The notes below the pieces were generated by a model, which was given only the letters and a program-made list of their open reading frames with translations, was not told the origin of the DNA and ran no database searches. A stretch of DNA of 64,000 nt from a bacterium (GTDB taxonomy: Bacteria; Patescibacteriota; Minisyncoccia; JAHIHE01): contig JAUYBG010000005.1 of NCBI GenBank assembly GCA_030693205.1, positions 9,017 through 73,016 of the forward strand, in the 5' to 3' direction. This document shows, one piece after another, positions 2,779 through 46,378 of the stretch. How positions within the stretch are numbered: the stretch's first letter is position 1; each line of letters begins with the position of its first letter. A program made the position numbers and the translations under genes.

Positions 2779-3330
2779 ATGATCGAATATGTATTTTTAG
2801 TAGCGGTATTAGCGATAATTTTGTGGGCTGTTGGCATTTATAATGGCCTTGTAACCTTGAAAAACAGGGTAGACGAAGCCTGGAGCGATATTGATGTTCA
2901 GTTAAAAAGACGGTATGATTTGATCCCGAATCTTATCAATACAGTTAAGGGATATGCGACGCACGAAAAAGAGCTTTTTGAAAAAGTAACTCAAGCTAGA
3001 GCGAATGCGATGAACGCGCAGAGTCCTGAGCAAAAAGCTGGAGCGGAAAATATGCTTACGGGCGCACTTAAGAGCCTGTTCGCGGTTTCGGAAAATTACC
3101 CTCAACTTCGAGCTAGCGAGAATTTCTTGGAATTACAGCGCGAGCTGACTGATACGGAAGACAAAGTTCAGGCTTCCCGCCGATTCTATAACGGTAATGT
3201 GCGCGATTTCAATATCAAGCTTGAAGTTTTTCCGGATATGATTGTGGCCAATATGCTGGCTTATAAGAAGAGGGAATTCTTCGAGATTGCCAACGTGGCG
3301 GAAAAAGAACCGGTGCAAGTGAAATTCTAG
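2779..3330 (+). CDS. lemA: LemA family membrane protein
   Basis: N-terminal TM followed by conserved LemA core (GLVTLKNRVDEAWSDIDVQLKRRYDLIPNLI...RFYNGNVRDFN). Confidence 0.85.
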   Translation: MIEYVFLVAVLAIILWAVGIYNGLVTLKNRVDEAWSDIDVQLKRRYDLIPNLINTVKGYATHEKELFEKVTQARANAMNAQSPEQKAGAENMLTGALKSLFAVSENYPQLRASENFLELQRELTDTEDKVQASRRFYNGNVRDFNIKLEVFPDMIVANMLAYKKREFFEIANVAEKEPVQVKF

Positions 3331-3505
3331 TATTCGCTAGTTGCGAAATATGCTGTTTTGTCATTTCGAATTCGCCATCAGGCGAAGAGAAATCCCTTAT
3401 TCTTGTTATTTTGTATGTTCAAGGGATTCCTCGTGGAGTTTATCCTGAGGAACCGAAGGGCTCGGAATGACAAAAAGAGAGTATTTCGTGTTTAGAATTA
3501 AAATT

Positions 3506-4756
3506 ATGCCAACTTTATATACCCAATTAGATAAAAATACTCATAATCGTTATATTTTGGGTGTTTTTATTTTTTTATTTTTATTTTTTCAACCGCTGTC
3601 TCTCGATTCATCTTTTTCTGAGACGAAGACTTTCGGCATTAATATAGCAAAAGCGGCTTGTCCGACGGGGTTTGCGGATTGTGATGGAAATTCATTAAAT
3701 GCATGCGAAGTTGATTTATTAACTGATAAAAATAATTGCGGATATTGCGGAGTAAAATGCAATGGCGCCTGTACAAATGGCCAGTGTTTAAAGATTGCGG
3801 GAGGACTTATTTCTTGCGGCAGACTTTCCGATAATTGCGTTACTCCAATCGACGAATCTGCTCCTTGCGGCCTTTGTGCTTTATTTTATATGCTGAAAAA
3901 CATCATTAATTTTGTTATGACCTTGACAATCGGCGTCGGAGTATTTATCCTTGTCATCACCGGACTTCTCTATGCTTTTTCCGCCGGAAATTCTCGAAAG
4001 ATCGAATTGGCTAAATCAGCCGTCACCAGTGCAATTACTGGAATAGCCATTGTTTTTATTGCTTGGCTTGTTATCGCGGTAATTTTGCAAGGAATGGGAT
4101 ACGCTAATATGGCTACATGGAATCAGGTGAATTGTAATATGCCAAGCGCAACCGTAACTTGTGTTTGCGGTGATGGTATTTGGGATCCGGAATTGGGAGA
4201 AAGTTGTGATGGATTGAGCGGGGTAGCTCGCTCGCCGGAAGAAAGTTCCCCTTCTCACCAATATGCTTGTACCGCTAGCTGTACTCCTACTGGCGGATAT
4301 GCCGGGGATGGCATAGTGAACGGACCGGAAATTTGCGATCAAAATAGTCCTATTACAAATGATTGTTCAGGTATATATACGACAGGGCTTCCGGCATGGT
4401 GTACGGGTGTACCGGTTGCGGGGACGCAAACCTGCAACAGCACTAGCACGGATTGGGGCGCTTGTACTGTTTCAGAACCGCTTCCTGTAGGTAGTTCTTC
4501 TACCGCGTGCTCCAGCACAAGTCCGCAAATGAATGATTACGCTTGTTGCGAGCTAGTAAGTTGCACGAAAGACGGATGTGATTGCTGCGGGAGACCTGCG
4601 GGCGCCGCAATACCAGGCGGTTATACAAATGTTCAAAGCTTAAGTCCGTGCGGAACCAGCAATAATAGTTGCAGGTTGAATCAAAGCATTGCTATCCCTA
4701 GAAACTGGACGATAACCACAAATCATACAACAGCCGCTTTTAGATGTTGGGAATAA
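3506..4756 (+). CDS. Secreted Cys-rich protein containing a TrbC/VirB2-type pilin domain (CPR-type pilin-like surface protein)
   Basis: Central double-TM segment NIINFVMTLTIGVGVFILVITGLLYAFSAGNSRKIELAKSAVTSAITGIAIVFIAWLVIAVIL matches the CPR TrbC/VirB2 pilin motif. Flanked by Cys-rich modules (CPTGFADCDGNSLNACEV..., CGYCGVKCNGACTNGQC, ...CCELVSCTKDGCDCCG). Start chosen at the ATG at 3506 (MPTLYTQLDKN...), not the track start 3467, because this N-terminus parallels the HtpX N-terminus. Confidence 0.55.
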   Translation: MPTLYTQLDKNTHNRYILGVFIFLFLFFQPLSLDSSFSETKTFGINIAKAACPTGFADCDGNSLNACEVDLLTDKNNCGYCGVKCNGACTNGQCLKIAGGLISCGRLSDNCVTPIDESAPCGLCALFYMLKNIINFVMTLTIGVGVFILVITGLLYAFSAGNSRKIELAKSAVTSAITGIAIVFIAWLVIAVILQGMGYANMATWNQVNCNMPSATVTCVCGDGIWDPELGESCDGLSGVARSPEESSPSHQYACTASCTPTGGYAGDGIVNGPEICDQNSPITNDCSGIYTTGLPAWCTGVPVAGTQTCNSTSTDWGACTVSEPLPVGSSSTACSSTSPQMNDYACCELVSCTKDGCDCCGRPAGAAIPGGYTNVQSLSPCGTSNNSCRLNQSIAIPRNWTITTNHTTAAFRCWE

Positions 4757-4771
4757 AATAAACCCAGGTTT

Positions 4772-5563
4772 ATGTTTAATAAAACAATAAAAATTATTAT
4801 AGGAATTATAATATTGGCTTTAGTAGCTTTTGCAATTTTTTTATTTAAAGATACCGAAAACAACAACGGGAACGGGGGGTCAGAAAATATTGTAAATAGA
4901 TTGCCGGAAAGTGAAAATATTGCCAGTATTTTAGAGGAGTTAAAAAATAATCATCCGGAATTTAGCGCTTCGCAATTAGAATTTTATCGCGAAACAGCAA
5001 AGAGCGATAAAGAAATTATTAAACTATGTAAGGGGAGAGGCGATGAAAATGATTGTATCGCTTCGGTAGCTTTTATTAAAGGTGAAAGCGCCGTTTGCGG
5101 CGAAATTGAAAATTCAAAAATACGAATTGAATGCGCGAATGCAATCTTGCAAAGATTGGGCGTGGAAAAGATTGATAAATGTTGGTCTTTTGACGGCTAT
5201 GATCTTATGCACTGTTTGAGGAACATTTTTGTAATGTATGATAAGCCGGAAGATTGTTTAAATTTAAAATCTGAAAAAACGCAGCAAGTGTGCGAAAGCG
5301 TTTTTTATTACGAGATAGCTTTTATACAACATGACGGGGAATTGTGTAAAAAGATTACAAACGAGAAATTAAATCAATATTGCTTTGAAAATGCAGGCGG
5401 TAAATTTCCGGATAGCGATAACGATGGATTAACTGATTATGAAGAAATAAATAAATATCATACCGATCCAGCTAATCCCGATACAGACGGCGATGGCTAT
5501 ACCGACGGCGACGAAGTTAAAAATGGTTTTAATCCATTAGGGGAAGGCAAATTAAAATTCTAA
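4772..5563 (+). CDS. Secreted protein with N-terminal TM anchor and C-terminal thrombospondin type-3-like calcium-binding repeats
   Basis: TM segment IIIGIIILALVAFAIFLF; C-terminus DSDNDGLTDYEEINKYHTDPANPDTDGDGYTDGDEV matches DxDxDG TSP3 repeats. Confidence 0.55.
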   Translation: MFNKTIKIIIGIIILALVAFAIFLFKDTENNNGNGGSENIVNRLPESENIASILEELKNNHPEFSASQLEFYRETAKSDKEIIKLCKGRGDENDCIASVAFIKGESAVCGEIENSKIRIECANAILQRLGVEKIDKCWSFDGYDLMHCLRNIFVMYDKPEDCLNLKSEKTQQVCESVFYYEIAFIQHDGELCKKITNEKLNQYCFENAGGKFPDSDNDGLTDYEEINKYHTDPANPDTDGDGYTDGDEVKNGFNPLGEGKLKF

Positions 5564-5623
5564 TTTGTAGTTGGTAGGAAAATTTTGTTCCTGCTACTCA
5601 CTACAACCTACTCACTACTTACT

Positions 5624-6523
5624 ATGCCTACTTTATACAATCAAGCTGATAAAAATATACGAAACTCTTATCTGTTAATTACAGCTTTTTTGATATTCGC
5701 GATAGGAGTGGGCTGGGTTTTCAGCCGGGCAATGGATAGCCCCGGCATTTTGGTTTTTGCCGTGATATTCAGCATGATAATGAGTATCAGCAGCTATTGG
5801 TTTTCCGATAAAATTGTTTTGGCCATGAGCGGGGCCAAAGAAATTGATCACGACAGCAATCGCGAGCTTTATCATATCGTGGAAAATCTTTGCATTACGG
5901 CCGGACTTCCTGTGCCGAAAATTTATATTATTGACGACACGGCGCCGAACGCGTTTGCCACCGGCCGCGATCCCCAGCATGCAGTCATCGCGGTAACAAC
6001 AGGAATTTTGCAGAAACTCGAAAAATCCGAACTGGAAGGAGTATTGGCTCACGAATTAAGCCATGTAGGAAACCGCGATATTTTATTTTCCACGATCGTG
6101 GTGATTTTGGTGGGTTTTATTACTTTGCTGGCTGATATGTTTTGGCGATCGTCTTTATTCGGAGGCGGGCGCAGAAACAGGGAAGGCGGCGGGGCGATTA
6201 TGATTATCGCGCTTGTTTTGACAATTTTGGCGCCGATCGTGGCGACTTTGATTCAGTTGGCGATTTCCCGGAAGCGCGAGTTTTTGGCTGATGCCAGTGC
6301 CGCGCTTTTGACACGACATCCCGAAGGATTGGCCAGAGCGCTCGAAAAAATCTCCGGCGACACTGAACCGCTGGAAGTGGCGAACAAAGCCACGGCGCAT
6401 ATGTATATCGTGAATCCTCTGAAAGGCAACGGTAGCGGCCGGAGCTGGTTTGCCAATATGTTTTCCACTCATCCGGCCGTAGAGGAGCGAATTGCGGCGC
6501 TGAGAGGATTGGAAATAAAATAA
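5624..6523 (+). CDS. htpX: Zinc metalloprotease HtpX (peptidase M48)
   Basis: HEXXH motif AHELSHVGNRD, four TM segments, C-terminal FSTHPAVEERIAALR. Start moved to the ATG at 5624 (MPTLYNQADKNIRNSYLL...), typical of an HtpX N-terminus; the track start at 5585 adds 13 unlikely residues. Confidence 0.85.
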   Translation: MPTLYNQADKNIRNSYLLITAFLIFAIGVGWVFSRAMDSPGILVFAVIFSMIMSISSYWFSDKIVLAMSGAKEIDHDSNRELYHIVENLCITAGLPVPKIYIIDDTAPNAFATGRDPQHAVIAVTTGILQKLEKSELEGVLAHELSHVGNRDILFSTIVVILVGFITLLADMFWRSSLFGGGRRNREGGGAIMIIALVLTILAPIVATLIQLAISRKREFLADASAALLTRHPEGLARALEKISGDTEPLEVANKATAHMYIVNPLKGNGSGRSWFANMFSTHPAVEERIAALRGLEIK

Positions 6524-6549
6524 TTTATTAATTTTTTAAATACAAAAAT

Positions 6550-7431
6550 ATGAAAATAATAGAGAATATCAAATCCAGTATTTACAACTCCGCCTATTAC
6601 AGCGAAATTTTGAATAAGCCGTTTTCTTATTCACTAAAATATTTTTTATCCTTGATATGCTTGATCGCCTTGGTTTCCACTATTATTTTTACTTTTTCAA
6701 CATTGCCGAAAATCAATAAAGTCTTCGACGAGATCGGTTCCAATGTTTTAAATTATTATCCTGAAGAATTGGAAATAACCGTAAAAAATGGAATAATTTC
6801 AACTAATGTTTCGGAGCCGTACTTTATAAAAGCGCCGGCCGAGTTTAAAAATGACAGCAAAAGATCGGACAATAAAACAATAAAAGATGAAATTGATAAT
6901 TTATTGGTTATTGATACCCAGTCGCCTTTGAACCTGGACGCGTTTAAAGATTATAAAACCTTTGTTCTTATAAGCCGCGACAGTATTGCTTATCGCGACT
7001 CGAACGAAGCTATTAAGATCCAATTTTTAAATCAAGAGTTCAATGGAGTTATTACCAAAACGAAAATTTCCTCGGCGCTGAACAAAATTATGCCATATTT
7101 AAAAGTTATACCGCTTGTTTTGGTGCCGCTGGTTTTTGTCGGATCAATTTTAGGCGCTACTATTAAATATCTTATTTATTTGATCTTTGGCGCGCTTGTT
7201 ATCTGGATTATGGCTAAAGCGATGAAAAGGAATTTGAGATTTGGTAAAAGCTATCAGATCGGTATTCACGCGATAACGCTCGGAGTGATCTTGGAAGCGA
7301 CAGTTTTCCGATTTTATCCGAATTTGGAATTTCCTTTATTTTTTACGCTTTTAATGTTTGCGATCGTCTGGATAAATCTTAAATTTTTGCCTAGTGTAAG
7401 CATTCCCATACCGACATTGAAAAAAGATTAA
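6550..7431 (+). CDS. DUF1189-like multi-pass membrane protein
   Basis: N-terminus IKSSIYNSAYYSEILNKPFSYSLKYFLSL plus TM-rich C-terminal half resemble the DUF1189 (YqgC-like) family. Confidence 0.4.
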   Translation: MKIIENIKSSIYNSAYYSEILNKPFSYSLKYFLSLICLIALVSTIIFTFSTLPKINKVFDEIGSNVLNYYPEELEITVKNGIISTNVSEPYFIKAPAEFKNDSKRSDNKTIKDEIDNLLVIDTQSPLNLDAFKDYKTFVLISRDSIAYRDSNEAIKIQFLNQEFNGVITKTKISSALNKIMPYLKVIPLVLVPLVFVGSILGATIKYLIYLIFGALVIWIMAKAMKRNLRFGKSYQIGIHAITLGVILEATVFRFYPNLEFPLFFTLLMFAIVWINLKFLPSVSIPIPTLKKD

Positions 7432-7479
7432 CTTAAAGCGTTAATTTTTAAAAACTAATTTTGAACGGAGGTGATAAAA

Positions 7480-7842
7480 ATGGAAACTCAACAAATGCCG
7501 CCGCAAAATACGCCGCCGGTAGCGCCGCAAGCGCCGCTGACTGACGAGCAGGATATCCAGCAGAATAAAATCTGGGCGCTTTTGAGCTATTTGGGAATTT
7601 TGTTTTTAATTCCGCTTTTAGCTAAAAAGGACAGCAAATTCGCTCAATTTCACGCAAAACAGGGAGTGATTTTGTTTGTTATATCGTTTGTTAGCGTTAT
7701 ACCGATAATCGGATGGATGTTATCACCTTTAGTGATATTTGTATTATTTATCGTATCCGTGATTGGTATAATAAATGTTTTGCAGGGTAAATATTGGAAA
7801 ATTCCGGTGATTGGAGATTACGCGGAGAAGATAAATATATAA
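7480..7842 (+). CDS. DUF4870 (TM2-like) small membrane protein
   Basis: Pro-rich N-terminus then KIWALLSYLGILFLIPLLAKKDSKFAQFHAKQGVILFVISFV, the classic DUF4870 core. GGAGG ribosome-binding site 8 nt upstream of the ATG at 7480; the track start 7471 is GTG. Confidence 0.7.
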   Translation: METQQMPPQNTPPVAPQAPLTDEQDIQQNKIWALLSYLGILFLIPLLAKKDSKFAQFHAKQGVILFVISFVSVIPIIGWMLSPLVIFVLFIVSVIGIINVLQGKYWKIPVIGDYAEKINI

Positions 7843-7875
7843 AATTTAATAAAATCTATTGATTCTAATACCGCG

Positions 7876-7906
7876 ATATGAAACCCGCGGTATTTTGTTG
7901 TAAAAT
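7876..7906 (+). terminator. Intrinsic terminator after the DUF4870 gene
   Basis: ACCGCG-atatgaaac-CCGCGGT hairpin followed by ATTTTGTTG. Confidence 0.45.
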
Positions 7907-7950
7907 TAAAAGAATATGATATGATTTAAGTAAAGACAATCAAAAACAAA

Positions 7951-8106
7951 GCGATAAAATATTTGATTTTGAAGCACATTTTATCGCCCTTTGTAAAAAC
8001 TTTTAATAAATTCATTTTTGGGCGATAAAATCTGAGCGAGGTGGAGTTGATGTAGCTATCTGGTATAATTGCGGCCGAGCGTCTGAAAAATTAAGTATTT
8101 TATCGC
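7951..8106. promoter_or_regulatory. Promoter region with four copies of a GCGATAAAAT motif arranged as two inverted pairs around an extended -10 promoter (TTGATG ... TGGTATAAT) upstream of the DUF2207 gene
   Basis: Motif copies at 7951-7960 (+), 7978-7987 (inverted), 8022-8031 (+), 8097-8106 (inverted). TGGTATAAT at 8061-8069 with TTGATG at 8049-8054, spacer 8055-8062. Confidence 0.5.
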
Positions 8107-8140
8107 TTTGTATAAAATCTGTAGAATTATAAGAAATTTT

Positions 8141-10138
8141 ATGCTTCACTCCATTGCTAAAATTTTTAGTAAAAGATTTATTGCACTTCCCGCTATTTTT
8201 ATTTTCGGTTTTTTATTGTCTTTCCAAGCAGCGGAAGCGAAAAGTTACTCTTATGATTTAATTGATGTAAAAATCAATATAAATCAAGATTCCACTTTTG
8301 ACGCGGAAGAACAGCAGACTTTTAATTATATCGGCGAGTATCATTCGGGCTGGCGGAGCATTTTGCTTAATAAAACCGATGGAATTTCAGATATTGAAGT
8401 TGTCGATGGTCAAACAGGGCAAAAATTGGCGTATAGCAGAAAAAGATTGGATAAATTGGATTCGGCAAGCTGGGGGCGCTTCACTTATTTCAAGGAAAAT
8501 GGCGCTGAAAATATCGAATGGTATTATAATTTGGCGGATACAACCTATAAGTGGATCATTAAATATAAAGTTCATGGCGGTATTGGTTTTTTCCCTGATT
8601 ATGACGAGTTGTATTGGAATGTTTTTACTGATTACGAAATGCCGGTAAAAGAAGCGACAGCGCAAATAATGCTTCCCGAAGAGGTTAATTACAGTAATGT
8701 GATTTTTAAAGCCTATAGAACCGATGTTTATCAGGAATATTTTATCGATAAGTCTCCTTTGCCTGACAAAAAAAGTTTTCTTTTTGAAGCTAAAAATTTT
8801 AAATCCAAAGAAGCGTTCACCGTCCAGCTGGATTGGCCCAAAGGCATAGTGAGCCAGTCCGCTTACTGGCAGGATTTTTTAAGGATTTATTTATTTTATC
8901 TTTTGGCAGGACTTATTACGTTTGCCAATTTGATTTTTATATTTGTTCACTGGTATTGGCGGGAAGTGCGGCCAAAAGGCAGGGGAACGATCATTCCGCA
9001 ATACGCGCCGCCGGAAAATCTGCGTCCGGCAATGGCGGAAATATTGATCAAAGAAAGGGTGACGGATAAAGGCTGGTCGGCGACGGTAATTGATCTCGCG
9101 GTAAGGGGATATGTCAGGATTAAAGAAGATACTGCGGATTGGATGGATACCGCTAGAAATATTTTTCCGATCATTCCTATTATATTAATCTTGCTGATAT
9201 TTATCACTCAGATCGTAAGATTTTCTGCTTATAAAAATTTTTGGTTTGCTGTTAGTTTTGGCGGCATATTCATGTGGCTTATTTTTATGTTCGTTAAACC
9301 TTTATGGGCATTGTTAAAAAACGGCTTAAAAGATTTTTTTGTTCCCAAAAATTATATATTGGAAGAAGTGGAAGACGCTGATAGGTCATCGCTGGAAGAC
9401 TATGAAATTTTATTTTTAAGCGTGATTTTTGGGGAGACAAAAACTTTTTCAACTAAGGCAATGAAACACGCCAGTAATGCAAGAAAAAGAGAATTATTTG
9501 AAGCGATGGAAAAATTGAAAGAAAAATTATACAGCGAAACCACTATTGATACCGGGGCTTTTGAGATCGGGGTTGAAAAAGAAAAAACCGGGTGCGGGAT
9601 TTTAGCCGTTGCTTTTATTGCGGTTATTCTTATTTTTGCCTTTTTCCAAACCATCGTGGCATCATTTGCGATTTTTTTAGGCGCTGTTTTTTTAAACGGG
9701 ATACTTATCTACATTTATCTTAATTACGAGGCCCGGCTTTCTAAAAAAGGATTTATCCTGAAAGAAGACTGGCTGGGATTTAAAATGTATTTGGAAACCG
9801 CGGAGCGGTATCGGATGCAGAATTTGACGCCGGAAACTTTTGAAAAATATTTGCCGTATGCCATAATTTTCGGTATTGAGAAAAAATGGGGCAAAGCTTT
9901 TGAGGCTTCTAATATACAAAATCCTTCCTGGTATATCGGCGTTTATGTCGGGGGTGGAATTCACTCCGGTGGATTTTCCCAAGGCGGCGGATTTTCGCCT
10001 GCCGGTTTTTCCGCGTCTTTCAGTTCCAGTTTTTCCTCGGCATTTTCTTCGGCGGGTGGCGTGGGAAGCGCTGGCGGAGGCGGAGGCGGTGGCGCGGGAA
10101 GCGCTGGCGGGGGCGGTGGCGGGGGAGGAGCGGGGTAG
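8141..10138 (+). CDS. DUF2207 family membrane protein with a Gly/Ser-rich C-terminal tail
   Basis: Signal peptide MLHSIAKIFSKRFIALPAIFIFGFLLSFQAAEA, beta-rich N-domain, TM segments, and a C-terminal GGGFSQGGGFSP...GGGGGGAGSAGGGGGGGG tail typical of DUF2207. True start is probably the ATG at 8141; the track start 8108 is TTG. Confidence 0.7.
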   Translation: MLHSIAKIFSKRFIALPAIFIFGFLLSFQAAEAKSYSYDLIDVKININQDSTFDAEEQQTFNYIGEYHSGWRSILLNKTDGISDIEVVDGQTGQKLAYSRKRLDKLDSASWGRFTYFKENGAENIEWYYNLADTTYKWIIKYKVHGGIGFFPDYDELYWNVFTDYEMPVKEATAQIMLPEEVNYSNVIFKAYRTDVYQEYFIDKSPLPDKKSFLFEAKNFKSKEAFTVQLDWPKGIVSQSAYWQDFLRIYLFYLLAGLITFANLIFIFVHWYWREVRPKGRGTIIPQYAPPENLRPAMAEILIKERVTDKGWSATVIDLAVRGYVRIKEDTADWMDTARNIFPIIPIILILLIFITQIVRFSAYKNFWFAVSFGGIFMWLIFMFVKPLWALLKNGLKDFFVPKNYILEEVEDADRSSLEDYEILFLSVIFGETKTFSTKAMKHASNARKRELFEAMEKLKEKLYSETTIDTGAFEIGVEKEKTGCGILAVAFIAVILIFAFFQTIVASFAIFLGAVFLNGILIYIYLNYEARLSKKGFILKEDWLGFKMYLETAERYRMQNLTPETFEKYLPYAIIFGIEKKWGKAFEASNIQNPSWYIGVYVGGGIHSGGFSQGGGFSPAGFSASFSSSFSSAFSSAGGVGSAGGGGGGGAGSAGGGGGGGGAG

Positions 10139-45997: not shown

Positions 45998-46378
45998 TTG
46001 AAAAATATTTATATGAATTTTAAAGATAAAAATATTTTGAATTGGATATTGCTCATTTTTTGGATGGGAGTTATTTTTTATTTTTCCAATCAGCTGGATC
46101 TGAAATCCGGATTTGAAAGCCGGCTGGATTTTATTTTGCGAAAAGCTGCGCATATTGCCGAATACGCGATTTTGACATATTTGGCCTGGCAGGCGATAGG
46201 CGACGGGGTGAAAAGTAAAAAATATTTGATCTATGCCGTGATTTTTTCCATATTATACGCGATTGGCGATGAATATCATCAGACATTTGTGCGCTCAAGG
46301 ATCGGAAGTCCCATTGATGTTTTAGTTGATAGTGTGGGAATAACTCTGGCCGGGTTGATAATTTGGAAAAGAAAATAA
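45998..46378 (+). CDS. VanZ-like family membrane protein
   Basis: KAAHIAEYAILTYLAW ... DEYHQTFVRSRIGSPIDVLVDSVG. Confidence 0.75.
   Translation: MKNIYMNFKDKNILNWILLIFWMGVIFYFSNQLDLKSGFESRLDFILRKAAHIAEYAILTYLAWQAIGDGVKSKKYLIYAVIFSILYAIGDEYHQTFVRSRIGSPIDVLVDSVGITLAGLIIWKRK

What the first reader, a model, noticed from the sequence alone, without database searches (positions are those of the whole stretch)
3506..5690. Near-identical N-terminal signal-anchor shared by a Cys-rich pilin-domain protein and HtpX
Both CDS begin MPTLY(T/N)Q(L/A)DKN(T/I)(H/R)N(R/S)Y(I/L)L, at 3506 and 5624, with roughly 70% nucleotide identity over about 60 nt, and then diverge completely. The HtpX-type N-terminus appears to have been duplicated onto, or recombined with, the 5' end of the surface pilin-like gene 2 kb upstream. 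This could be shared targeting or regulatory sequence, for example a common translational or membrane-insertion signal, or a recent 5'-end duplication.
Basis: seen in the sequence. Interest (0 to 1): 0.5.

Follow-up and report, generated by a model that had tools for sequence, protein, structure and literature searches.

The report
Pilin gene carrying a copied htpX start
A surface pilin-like gene in an uncultured Patescibacteria genome begins with an old, diverged copy of the first 18 codons of its neighbour, the membrane protease gene htpX; this is a real chimeric gene that reuses a membrane-targeting tail, but it is an ordinary kind of evolutionary event.

Summary
The pilin-like CDS (3506-4756) and htpX (5624-6523) share MPTLY.Q.DKN..N.Y.L. 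That is 12 of 19 residues and 38 of 57 nt, starting exactly at the ATG and ending at the edge of the hydrophobic segment. No other 19-mer in the window comes close (BLOSUM62 score 62; next best 30).

The motif is the family-typical N-terminal tail of HtpX in 118 of the 120 listed Patescibacteria homologues. Among pilins it occurs only in one small clade. All members with enough context lie in the same lemA-pilin-TSP3-htpX cluster. Related pilins in that same position, and paralogues in the same MAG, have ordinary leaders. So the pilin gene picked up a copy of the htpX 5' end.

The event is old, not recent. Third codon positions are nearly randomised, and pilins carrying the leader are only 36-56% identical overall. 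The copy is translated, because its indels are whole codons. It most likely serves as the positively charged n-region of a Sec signal peptide. In pilins it decays, whereas in HtpX it is nearly invariant.

A second, young htpX-5'::pilin-fragment chimera exists in another genome (55 of 57 nt). A regulatory role at the mRNA level is not supported. The best mechanistic analogue is the short-junction tandem-duplication chimeras of Staphylococcus aureus. Interest is modest.

The parts
2779..3330 (+). lemA, the first gene of the cluster. In most Patescibacteria it lies directly upstream of htpX.
   Evidence: PF04011 E=2e-61. lemA lies upstream of htpX on the same strand in 70 of 80 species-level loci, with a gap of 150 nt or less in 35.
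3331..3505 (+). 175-nt lemA-pilin spacer. It is specific to this lineage and is not the hairpin spacer found in this position in relatives.
   Evidence: Sequence comparison; folding z=-2.3; no Rfam match.
3506..3562 (+). HtpX-derived leader: start codon plus about 18 codons (MPTLYTQLDKNTHNRYILG). It forms the n-region of the pilin precursor's signal peptide.
   Evidence: 12 of 19 aa and 38 of 57 nt identical to 5624-5680. 15 of 18 residues match the HtpX variant MPTLYTQADKNTRNSYIL. Outlier against six-frame nulls.
3506..4756 (+). Chimeric pilin-like gene (416 aa). It comprises the HtpX-type n-region, a 13-residue hydrophobic core, a Cys-rich insert, a VirB2-like two-helix pilin core and a C-terminal Cys-rich beta domain ending NHTTAAFRCWE.
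   Evidence: PF18895 at 21.5 bits, below the 26.6 cutoff, but all 9 aligned relatives hit it (best E=1e-8). The AF2 model has helices 12-27, 124-157 and 163-196 and a C-terminal beta domain, at low confidence. Orthologues.
4772..5563 (+). TSP3-repeat protein gene, the constant partner of the pilin's C-terminal Cys-rich domain. Its last 8 nt, AAATTCTA(A), mimic the lemA 3' end AAATTCTA(G).
   Evidence: PF18884 E=3e-14. A TSP3 gene follows the Cys-rich-domain gene in 24 of the 25 metagenome loci where that domain was detected. 3'-end similarity.
5564..5623 (+). Hairpin spacer (GTAG-rich and CTAC-rich arms, CTACTCACTAC twice) ending at the htpX ATG. It is homologous to the lemA-htpX spacer of L007 and to the lemA-pilin spacers of L088 and L090.
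   Evidence: Alignment; fold -16.4 kcal/mol, z=-3.1; these are the only two copies of the motif in the window.
5624..5680 (+). Parental copy: the conserved N-terminal cytoplasmic tail of HtpX (MPTLYNQADKNIRNSYLLI).
   Evidence: Nearly invariant in HtpX homologues. In 36 close homologues the leaders average 16 of 18 identical to the consensus.
5624..6523 (+). htpX (M48 zinc metalloprotease, 299 aa), intact.
   Evidence: PF01435 E=1e-34. The HELSH motif is read in the translation. 8000 homologues at E<=1e-20.

Best explanation
The first 18 or so codons of the pilin-like gene are a diverged paralogous copy of the first 18 or so codons of the neighbouring htpX gene. The pilin gene is therefore a chimera, htpX'-'pilin.

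Ancestral state (shown): in Patescibacteria, lemA is normally followed directly by htpX. In one broad group a two-gene surface module, VirB2-like pilin plus TSP3-repeat protein, sits between them. In that group the pilin has its own ordinary signal peptide.

The event (direction shown, mechanism inferred): in the ancestor of a small subclade that includes this MAG, the pilin's start codon and n-region were replaced by a copy of the htpX start codon and cytoplasmic N-tail, while htpX stayed intact. The most likely route is a short-junction tandem duplication running from just inside the pilin gene to codon 18 or so of htpX. Such a duplication places the downstream gene's 5' end in front of the upstream gene's body. 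Loss of the redundant copy would follow.

How it works now (inferred): the copied segment (net charge +1, N-in) supplies the n-region of a Sec-type signal peptide. The pilin's own 13-residue hydrophobic core follows it. This works because the HtpX tail also sits on the cytoplasmic side, ahead of TM1, so the two are topologically interchangeable.

Later history (shown): in the pilin the segment evolves under relaxed constraint. Only KNT(R)N.YIL stays recognisable, whereas in HtpX the tail remains almost invariant.
For: Homology is real.

Direction: M(P/A/S)T(L/I)Y.Q.DKN.R..Y.L heads 118 of the 120 listed HtpX homologues at 67-100% identity, and tblastn-confirmed relatives down to 56% identity in the loci also begin with it. 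Among pilins it occurs only in the window protein and in P0005-P0009, and in decayed form in P0002 and P0003.

The majority consensus of the pilin leaders, MPTLYTQSNKNTRNRYIL, is 15 of 18 identical to an HtpX variant.

Every leader-bearing orthologue with enough context lies in lemA-pilin-TSP3-htpX.

The gene order predates the swap. L117 (P0004), L097, L071, L056 and L028 have the same order with ordinary pilin leaders.

Paralogous pilins of the same MAG (P0015, P0026; 72-77% identical in the pilin core) have ordinary leaders.

The leader is translated. It is in frame in all 7 orthologues and its indels are whole codons.

In L088 and L090 the homology to the htpX 5' region extends upstream through the whole hairpin spacer to the lemA stop codon. 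L004 has a stem-loop of the same architecture in that position.

A second chimera exists. L028 positions 2766-2822 match its own htpX start at 55 of 57 nt and are joined to the C-terminal half of a pilin domain, now frameshifted.

Experimental precedent for the mechanism: the S. aureus nusG'-'sigH and rplK'-'sigH chimeras, in which the downstream gene stays intact (PMC3486894).
Against: No tandem-duplication intermediate (lemA-pilin-TSP3-htpX'::pilin-TSP3-htpX) was found in any locus.

In the window itself the spacer upstream of the chimeric gene is not the htpX-type hairpin spacer. That spacer sits before htpX instead, so extra rearrangements or spacer turnover must be assumed.

L007 is the closest of the 80 species-representative genome loci by HtpX (91% identical). 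It lacks pilin and TSP3 altogether, which requires either a secondary deletion there or a re-acquisition here.

Signal-peptide function and the cleavage site are read from the sequence only. No predictor or experiment was available.

The KNTRN.YILG part is well conserved among pilin leaders, including some synonymous sites. That leaves some room for selection on this segment.
Confidence: 0.8

Rival explanations
1. The shared N-terminus is a functional signal kept by selection in both genes. Examples would be a common membrane-insertion, SRP or YidC determinant, a shared translational control element in the 5' coding region, or a tag that couples the pilin precursor to the LemA-HtpX module.
For: The segment KNT(R)N.YILG is well conserved among pilin leaders whose proteins are only 36-56% identical, and several synonymous positions are conserved too. 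In L088 both genes start with the identical 15 nt ATGCCGACAATTTAC (MPTIY). Own-genome identity there is 36 of 57 nt against 27-32 cross-genome, which suggests local homogenisation.
Against: The first 9 residues decay freely in pilins: MPNLRIHSN, MPTFNTHSG, MSYLFSKPG, MALRKKSN. Orthologous pilins in the same position (P0004/L117, L097) and paralogues in the same MAG use ordinary leaders. The window shares no upstream sequence between the two genes. Among orthologues the htpX leader is 65-86% identical at nucleotide level, similar to the rest of the gene. No Rfam element was found.
Confidence: 0.1
2. The similarity is chance or convergence. Two N-in membrane proteins in an AT-rich genome would both begin with K/N/I/Y-rich tails.
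For: Composition does produce weak look-alikes. One example is the small membrane protein at 46013, MNFKDKNILNWILLI, with 9 of 19 identities and a score of 29.
Against: The pilin scores 62 against a next-best of 30 among 59,381 six-frame 19-mers, a z-score of about 8.7. The match is anchored at both start codons of genes 2 kb apart. Nucleotide identity is 67% with runs of 13-14 nt. The leader consensus across orthologues converges on the HtpX sequence. L028 holds a copy identical at 55 of 57 nt.
Confidence: 0.03
3. The duplication is recent, or gene conversion between the two copies is still going on in this genome.
For: L028 shows that a fresh copy can arise (55 of 57 nt). L088 shows an own-genome excess of identity.
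Against: In the window the pilin leader is no closer to its own htpX (38 of 57) than to htpX of other genomes (33-42 of 57). Third codon positions are 10 of 19 identical. The chimera is shared by lineages whose pilins are 36-56% identical.
Confidence: 0.04
4. The leader is an untranslated relic of an htpX 5' end lying upstream of a pilin gene that really starts further downstream. On this view the shared N-terminus is an annotation artefact.
For: An in-frame TTG exists at codon 18.
Against: Starting at codon 18 would remove every positive charge in front of the hydrophobic core. There is no other ATG before about residue 129. The frame is kept open across 7 orthologues and only whole-codon indels occur.
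Confidence: 0.03

Closest known systems
Short-junction tandem-duplication chimeras in Staphylococcus aureus (nusG'-'sigH and rplK'-'sigH; PMC3486894)
   Same: The upstream gene loses its own start and first codons. It gains the start codon and first tens of codons of a downstream neighbour, which stays intact. In L088 and L090 the donor's upstream region also drives the chimera.
   Different: In S. aureus the events are laboratory-observed and reversible, and both original genes persist beside the chimera. Here the event is ancient and fixed in a clade, the original pilin copy is gone, the junction repeats can no longer be read, and the captured piece serves membrane targeting rather than escape from translational repression.
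VirB2-like T4SS_pilin (PF18895) genes and arrays of Patescibacteria (PMC12102498)
   Same: The central two-helix pilin core and the GGLVPCGR...C.LC motif are shared. These genes are highly variable, multi-copy surface proteins with Sec-type leaders.
   Different: This gene is not in a pilin array and has no T4SS gene among the seven neighbouring ORFs scanned (2779-10138). It sits inside the lemA-htpX pair, carries large Cys-rich extensions and a partner TSP3 gene, and its leader n-region comes from a protease gene.
HtpX (peptidase M48B) with its upstream partner LemA
   Same: The window's htpX is a regular member of the family. It has the family-typical N-tail, two N-terminal hydrophobic segments, the HELSH motif and lemA upstream.
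   Different: Nothing unusual was found in htpX itself. The oddity is that its first 57 nt have a second, diverged copy 2.1 kb upstream, heading another gene.
Pilin families that share a conserved N-terminal leader, such as type IV prepilins and pilE/pilS cassettes (from general knowledge, not tested here)
   Same: A constant N-terminal segment is joined to variable bodies.
   Different: In those families the constant part is shared among paralogous pilins and is recognised by a dedicated prepilin peptidase or used for cassette recombination. Here it is shared with a non-pilin gene and is absent from the other pilins of the same genome.

Membership tests
Peptidase M48 / HtpX (gene 5624-6523) | Pfam PF01435 score above the gathering cutoff | tested here: met
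   120.5 bits against a cutoff of 20.3, E=1e-34.
Peptidase M48 / HtpX (gene 5624-6523) | HEXXH zinc-binding motif | tested here: met
   AHELSH is read in the translation. H143, E144 and H147 are invariant in the 28-sequence alignment.
Peptidase M48 / HtpX (gene 5624-6523) | Family-typical N-terminal tail followed by two hydrophobic segments | tested here: met
   MPTLYNQADKNIRNSYLL, then ITAFLIFAIGVGWVF and ILVFAVIFSMIMSISSYWF. The tail is shared with 118 of the 120 listed homologues. Topology (N-in, cytoplasmic catalytic domain) is taken from knowledge of E. coli HtpX and was not tested.
T4SS_pilin / VirB2-like pilin, PF18895 (gene 3506-4756) | Pfam score above the gathering cutoff | tested here: inconclusive
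   The window protein scores 21.5 bits, below the 26.6 cutoff. All 9 aligned relatives hit PF18895 at E<=0.01 (best 1e-8). The core is 59-77% identical to proteins with precomputed PF18895 hits or named pilin by NCBI.
T4SS_pilin / VirB2-like pilin, PF18895 (gene 3506-4756) | Hairpin of two long hydrophobic helices | tested here: met
   The AF2 model has helices 124-157 and 163-196 at pLDDT of about 57-70. The overall model is poor, with mean pLDDT 49.
T4SS_pilin / VirB2-like pilin, PF18895 (gene 3506-4756) | Genomic association with VirB4 or other T4SS genes | not tested
   Only the seven ORFs from 2779 to 10138 were scanned: LemA, TSP3, M48, DUF1189, DUF4870 and DUF2207. The rest of the window was not examined for T4SS genes.
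Chimeric gene made by short-junction tandem duplication | The 5' end, including the start codon, derives from the downstream neighbour, and that neighbour remains intact | tested here: met
   htpX is intact.
Chimeric gene made by short-junction tandem duplication | The donor's upstream region lies in front of the chimera | tested here: inconclusive
   Met in L088 and L090, where the hairpin spacer is homologous to the lemA-htpX spacer of L007. L004 has a similar stem-loop. Not met in the window, L001, L087 or L089.
Chimeric gene made by short-junction tandem duplication | An intact original copy of the recipient gene lies upstream of the chimera (the tandem intermediate) | tested here: not met
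   No locus among L001-L119 shows pilin-TSP3-chimera-TSP3-htpX. L028 has pilin-TSP3-chimeric remnant-...-htpX, which is partly compatible.
Chimeric gene made by short-junction tandem duplication | Short direct repeats at the duplication junction | not testable with these tools
   The junction region has diverged too far to read such repeats.
Sec-type cleavable signal peptide (pilin residues 1 to about 50) | Positively charged n-region followed by a 7-15-residue hydrophobic core | tested here: met
   Read directly from the sequence. MPTLYTQLDKNTHNR carries D-, K+ and R+. YILGVFIFLFLFF is 13 uncharged residues. The model has a helix at 12-27.
Sec-type cleavable signal peptide (pilin residues 1 to about 50) | Signal-peptidase cleavage site and actual export | not testable with these tools
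   The conserved small-x-small motif AKA|AC lies unusually far (22 residues) after the hydrophobic core. No predictor or experiment was available.

The most novel reading that the evidence does not exclude
The HtpX-derived tail is not just a convenient n-region. It functionally couples the pilin precursor to the LemA-HtpX membrane quality-control module encoded in the same operon. For example, HtpX might recognise or process a leader that mimics its own N-terminus, or both nascent chains might be delivered to the same insertion site. On this reading the htpX 5' end acts as a recurrent capture point for surface-protein genes, with two independent chimeras: the window clade and L028.
Probability: 0.06. 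Interest if true: 0.6.

Novelty: new member of a known kind. Interest (0 to 1): 0.3.

Why it matters
This is a clean natural example, in the reduced genomes of Patescibacteria, of a new gene start made by copying the 5' end of a neighbouring gene. It shows that the cytoplasmic N-tail of a polytopic membrane protease can replace the n-region of a secretory signal peptide and persist across a clade.

On the practical side:
- It warns against reading N-terminal word matches as functional links between a pilin and HtpX.
- It gives a marker (leader copy plus hairpin spacer) for tracing rearrangements at the widely conserved lemA-htpX junction.
- It points to that junction as a place where surface-protein and toxin-antitoxin cassettes repeatedly land.

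It does not reveal a new system or mechanism.

Tried and rejected
1. A third protein search, using only the first 60 residues of the pilin, was meant to find other proteins with the leader. It returned nothing because no candidate shared enough 5-residue words. That search was wasted.

2. An exact degenerate DNA pattern for the chimeric junction found no match in JGI metagenome contigs. The leader-bearing orthologues come mostly from Logan and NCBI assemblies.

3. Gene conversion in the window was tested by comparing own-genome with cross-genome leader identity. The result was negative for the window and positive only for L088.

4. I tested whether the window acquired pilin-TSP3 by homology-facilitated illegitimate recombination. 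Sliding-window identity of lemA and htpX against L007, L001, L004, L087, L090 and L117 showed no clear breakpoint. The idea is kept only as speculation, resting on the AAATTCTA repeat at the lemA and TSP3 3' ends.

5. The AlphaFold2 model of the pilin was too poor (mean pLDDT 49) for fold searches, so none were run.

6. The Rfam scan found no known RNA element.

7. The promoter and terminator scan gave counts no higher than shuffled sequence. The best promoter-like site is upstream of lemA, at 2722-2750.

8. The alternative starts, ATG 3467 for the pilin and TTG 5585 for htpX, were rejected on homologue N-termini and NCBI gene models.
Full report
**1. What is in the sequence**

The region holds five co-oriented genes with short spacers:
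- lemA (2779-3330)
- a Cys-rich pilin-like gene (3506-4756)
- a TSP3-repeat protein gene (4772-5563)
- htpX, an M48 peptidase gene (5624-6523)
- a DUF1189 gene (6550-7431)

The proteins match NCBI entries of a Patescibacteria-type MAG with locus tags Q8N37_, on a 124-kb contig.

Without gaps, 12 of 19 residues and 38 of 57 nt are identical. Identity by codon position is 15, 13 and 10 of 19. The 30 nt upstream match at chance level (7 of 30). Similarity ends where the hydrophobic segments begin.

**2. Is it more than chance?**

Yes. I scored the HtpX 19-mer against all 59,381 stop-free six-frame 19-mers of the window. The pilin start scored 62 (BLOSUM62) and the next best scored 30. The background had mean -17 and sd 9.

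The runner-up with the most identities (9 of 19, score 29) is the N-terminus of a small membrane protein at 46013. It shows how far composition alone can go.

A PSSM built from 118 HtpX N-termini was run over the window and 86 related loci. Beyond genuine htpX starts it picked out only the window pilin (31 bits) and one site in L028 (44 bits).

**3. Which gene is the donor?**

The tail M(P/A/S)T(L/I)Y.Q.DKN.R..Y.L heads 118 of the 120 listed HtpX homologues, at 67-100% identity. In 36 close homologues the leaders average 16 of 18 identical to the consensus. Relatives confirmed by tblastn in the genome loci, down to 56% identity, also begin with it.

Among pilin-like proteins the tail occurs only in the closest full-length relatives of the window protein:
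- P0005: MPNLRIHSNKNTRNFYIL
- P0006: MPTIYAQTNGKNTKKK
- P0007: MPTLNTQVNKNTRIIYIL
- P0008: MPTFNTHSGKNTRNAYIL
- P0009: MSYLFSKPGKKNTRNSYIL
- It is barely recognisable in P0002 and P0003.

The majority consensus of these leaders, MPTLYTQSNKNTRNRYIL, is 15 of 18 identical to an existing HtpX variant, MPTLYTQADKNTRNSYIL.

More distant pilins with the same C-terminal domain have ordinary n-regions such as MITKDIAKKITR. These include P0010-P0013 and 23 metagenome loci. So do two paralogous pilins of the same MAG, P0015 and P0026, which are 72-77% identical in the pilin core. HtpX is therefore the source and the pilin the recipient.

**4. Genomic context and age**

Among 80 species-representative Patescibacteria loci, lemA lies upstream of htpX on the same strand in 70. 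The gap is 150 nt or less in 35. lemA-htpX is thus the ancestral pair.

Every leader-bearing pilin with enough context sits in lemA-pilin-TSP3-htpX: L001-L006 and L087-L090.

The same gene order, but with ordinary pilin leaders, occurs in L117 (P0004), L097, L071, L056 and L028. The pilin-TSP3 module was therefore already between lemA and htpX before the leader was swapped.

The pilin's C-terminal Cys-rich domain is followed by a TSP3 gene in 24 of the 25 metagenome loci where the domain was detected. Most of these have no lemA or htpX nearby. The pair is an independent two-gene module.

The swap is old. Leader-bearing pilins are only 36-56% identical overall, while their HtpX proteins are 85-86% identical. 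In the window, the leader is no closer to its own htpX (38 of 57 nt) than to htpX of other genomes (33-42 of 57).

The leader is translated. It stays in frame in seven orthologues and its indels are whole codons.

**5. Traces of the rearrangement**

The 60-nt spacer before the window's htpX forms a stem-loop of GTAG-rich and CTAC-rich arms (-16.4 kcal/mol, z=-3.1). It aligns with the lemA-htpX spacer of L007. L007 is the closest of the 80 species-representative genome loci (HtpX 91%, LemA 87%), and it has no pilin or TSP3 at all.

The same spacer lies between lemA and the chimeric pilin in L088 and L090, ending in the same ...CTTACT-ATG-CC context. L004 has a stem-loop of the same architecture in that position. 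In those genomes the chimeric pilin occupies the original htpX 5' region: spacer, start codon and about 18 codons.

In the window the hairpin is in front of htpX instead. The TSP3 gene ends in AAATTCTAA, mimicking the lemA end AAATTCTAG. So either the hairpin was once present at both positions, or the block 3331-5563 was lost and regained at the lemA stop codon. This cannot be resolved here.

**6. A second, young example**

In L028 (Ca. Parcubacteria RS_2_6), positions 2766-2822 match the first 57 nt of its own htpX (3751-3807) at 55 of 57 nt. About 14 upstream nt are also similar.

This copy is joined to the C-terminal half of a T4SS_pilin domain, GGILYIFSAGNSSSVTIAKLAITKSILGFAIVLI...FGFSDPLGDGSWKIFNC. 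That half is now broken by frameshifts. Two ORFs follow before the intact htpX. I read them from their sequences as a nucleotidyltransferase/HEPN-type toxin-antitoxin pair, but this was not scanned against any family library.

Joining the htpX 5' end to a neighbouring pilin has therefore happened at least twice. Only the in-frame junction at the boundary between n-region and h-region was kept.

**7. How it most likely arose and works**

The topology is this: the upstream gene's body acquires the downstream gene's start, and the downstream gene stays intact. That is the expected product of a short-junction tandem duplication spanning from inside the upstream gene to inside the downstream one.

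S. aureus gives an experimental precedent. There, nusG'-'sigH and rplK'-'sigH chimeras arise in this way. They are expressed from the downstream gene's promoter, RBS and start codon (PMC3486894). The tandem intermediate was not found here, so this step is inferred.

Functionally, the copied piece (D9-, K10+, R15+) precedes a 13-residue uncharged core, YILGVFIFLFLFF. That is the layout of a Sec signal peptide. In HtpX the same piece precedes the longer first hydrophobic segment (TM1), ITAFLIFAIGVGWVF.

In E. coli HtpX the catalytic domain is cytoplasmic, which places the N-tail inside. This is general knowledge and was not tested here. Both tails are then N-in and interchangeable.

In pilins the first nine residues drift freely and only KNT(R)N.YIL persists. 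That fits relaxed, generic n-region constraint.

**8. Alternatives**

- A shared regulatory or translational element is not supported. The window shares no upstream sequence between the two genes. The htpX leader shows no excess nucleotide conservation relative to the rest of the gene. No Rfam match was found.
- Ongoing gene conversion is not seen in the window. It is suggested only in L088, where both genes start ATGCCGACAATTTAC.
- An untranslated relic is unlikely, given frame conservation and the need for the positive charges.
- Chance is excluded by the nulls in section 2.

**9. What the genes are**

- htpX meets all tested M48 criteria.
- The pilin-like protein scores below the Pfam cutoff for PF18895 (21.5 against 26.6 bits). 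All nine aligned relatives hit the family. A low-confidence AF2 model shows the two long helices expected of a VirB2-like pilin, plus a C-terminal beta-rich Cys domain.
- VirB2-like pilins are widespread and multi-copy in Patescibacteria (PMC12102498).

**10. Verdict**

The event is ancient and fixed in a small clade, not recent. It is best described as a chimeric htpX'-'pilin gene whose captured segment serves as a signal-peptide n-region. It is a new instance of a known kind of event, and of modest interest.

Noticed in passing
window 5564-5623; also L007:754-828, L088:370-460, L090:665-749, L004:5913-6000: A stem-loop built from short tandem motifs (GTAG-rich arm, CTAC-rich arm) fills the spacer after the lemA stop and ends at the next ATG. 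Many other lemA-htpX spacers hold hairpins of the same architecture but with unrelated repeat motifs (L033, L049, L015, L073, L052). It could be a lemA terminator or a structure controlling htpX translation, for example a heat sensor. This was not tested.
   Followed up: partly
L028:2739-3716 (JAGLIN010000004.1): A near-identical copy (55 of 57 nt) of the htpX start is fused to a frameshifted C-terminal half of a pilin domain. Two ORFs that look like a nucleotidyltransferase/HEPN toxin-antitoxin pair follow, inserted just upstream of the intact htpX. This reading rests on the sequences only, with no family scan.
   Followed up: partly
window 3322-3330 and 5555-5563: lemA ends AAATTCTAG and the TSP3 gene ends AAATTCTAA. 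This 8-nt direct repeat brackets the block 3331-5563, which is absent from L007, the closest species-representative genome locus. It may mark a short-junction insertion or deletion of the whole pilin-TSP3 block.
   Followed up: partly
L091-L116 (metagenome loci); window 4140-5563: The C-terminal Cys-rich domain of the pilin (...CCEL..C..D.C.CCG...NHTTA.FRCW) also occurs on large non-pilin surface proteins. In 24 of the 25 loci where it was detected, a TSP3-repeat protein gene follows directly. This is a conserved two-gene module of unknown function.
   Followed up: partly
L007:203-1722 (JAHILZ010000058.1): L007 is the closest of the 80 species-representative genome loci (HtpX 91%, LemA 87%). 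It has lemA and htpX directly adjacent (77-nt hairpin spacer) with no pilin or TSP3. That implies loss there, possibly by recombination between the two leader copies, or regain in the window lineage.
   Followed up: partly
L088:461-475 and 2137-2151: The pilin and htpX of this genome both start with the identical 15 nt ATGCCGACAATTTAC (MPTIY rather than MPTLY). This hints at local gene conversion between the two leader copies in that lineage.
   Followed up: partly
window 46013-46378: A small membrane protein starts MNFKDKNILNWILLI, a weak look-alike of the HtpX tail (9 of 19 identities, score 29). I judged it to be compositional and used it as a control.
   Followed up: yes
lemA-htpX gaps in L009-L076: In 25 of 70 loci, 0.4-5.4 kb of varied cargo sits between lemA and htpX. 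From N-terminal sequences read by eye, it appears to include SPFH/band-7-like proteins, four-helix-bundle proteins, a DUF2207-like protein and small membrane proteins. The junction looks like a frequent insertion site.
   Followed up: no
window 9950-10138: The DUF2207 protein (8108-10138) ends in a long Gly/Ser/Ala-rich tail (...GGGGGGGAGSAGGGGGGGGAG).
   Followed up: no
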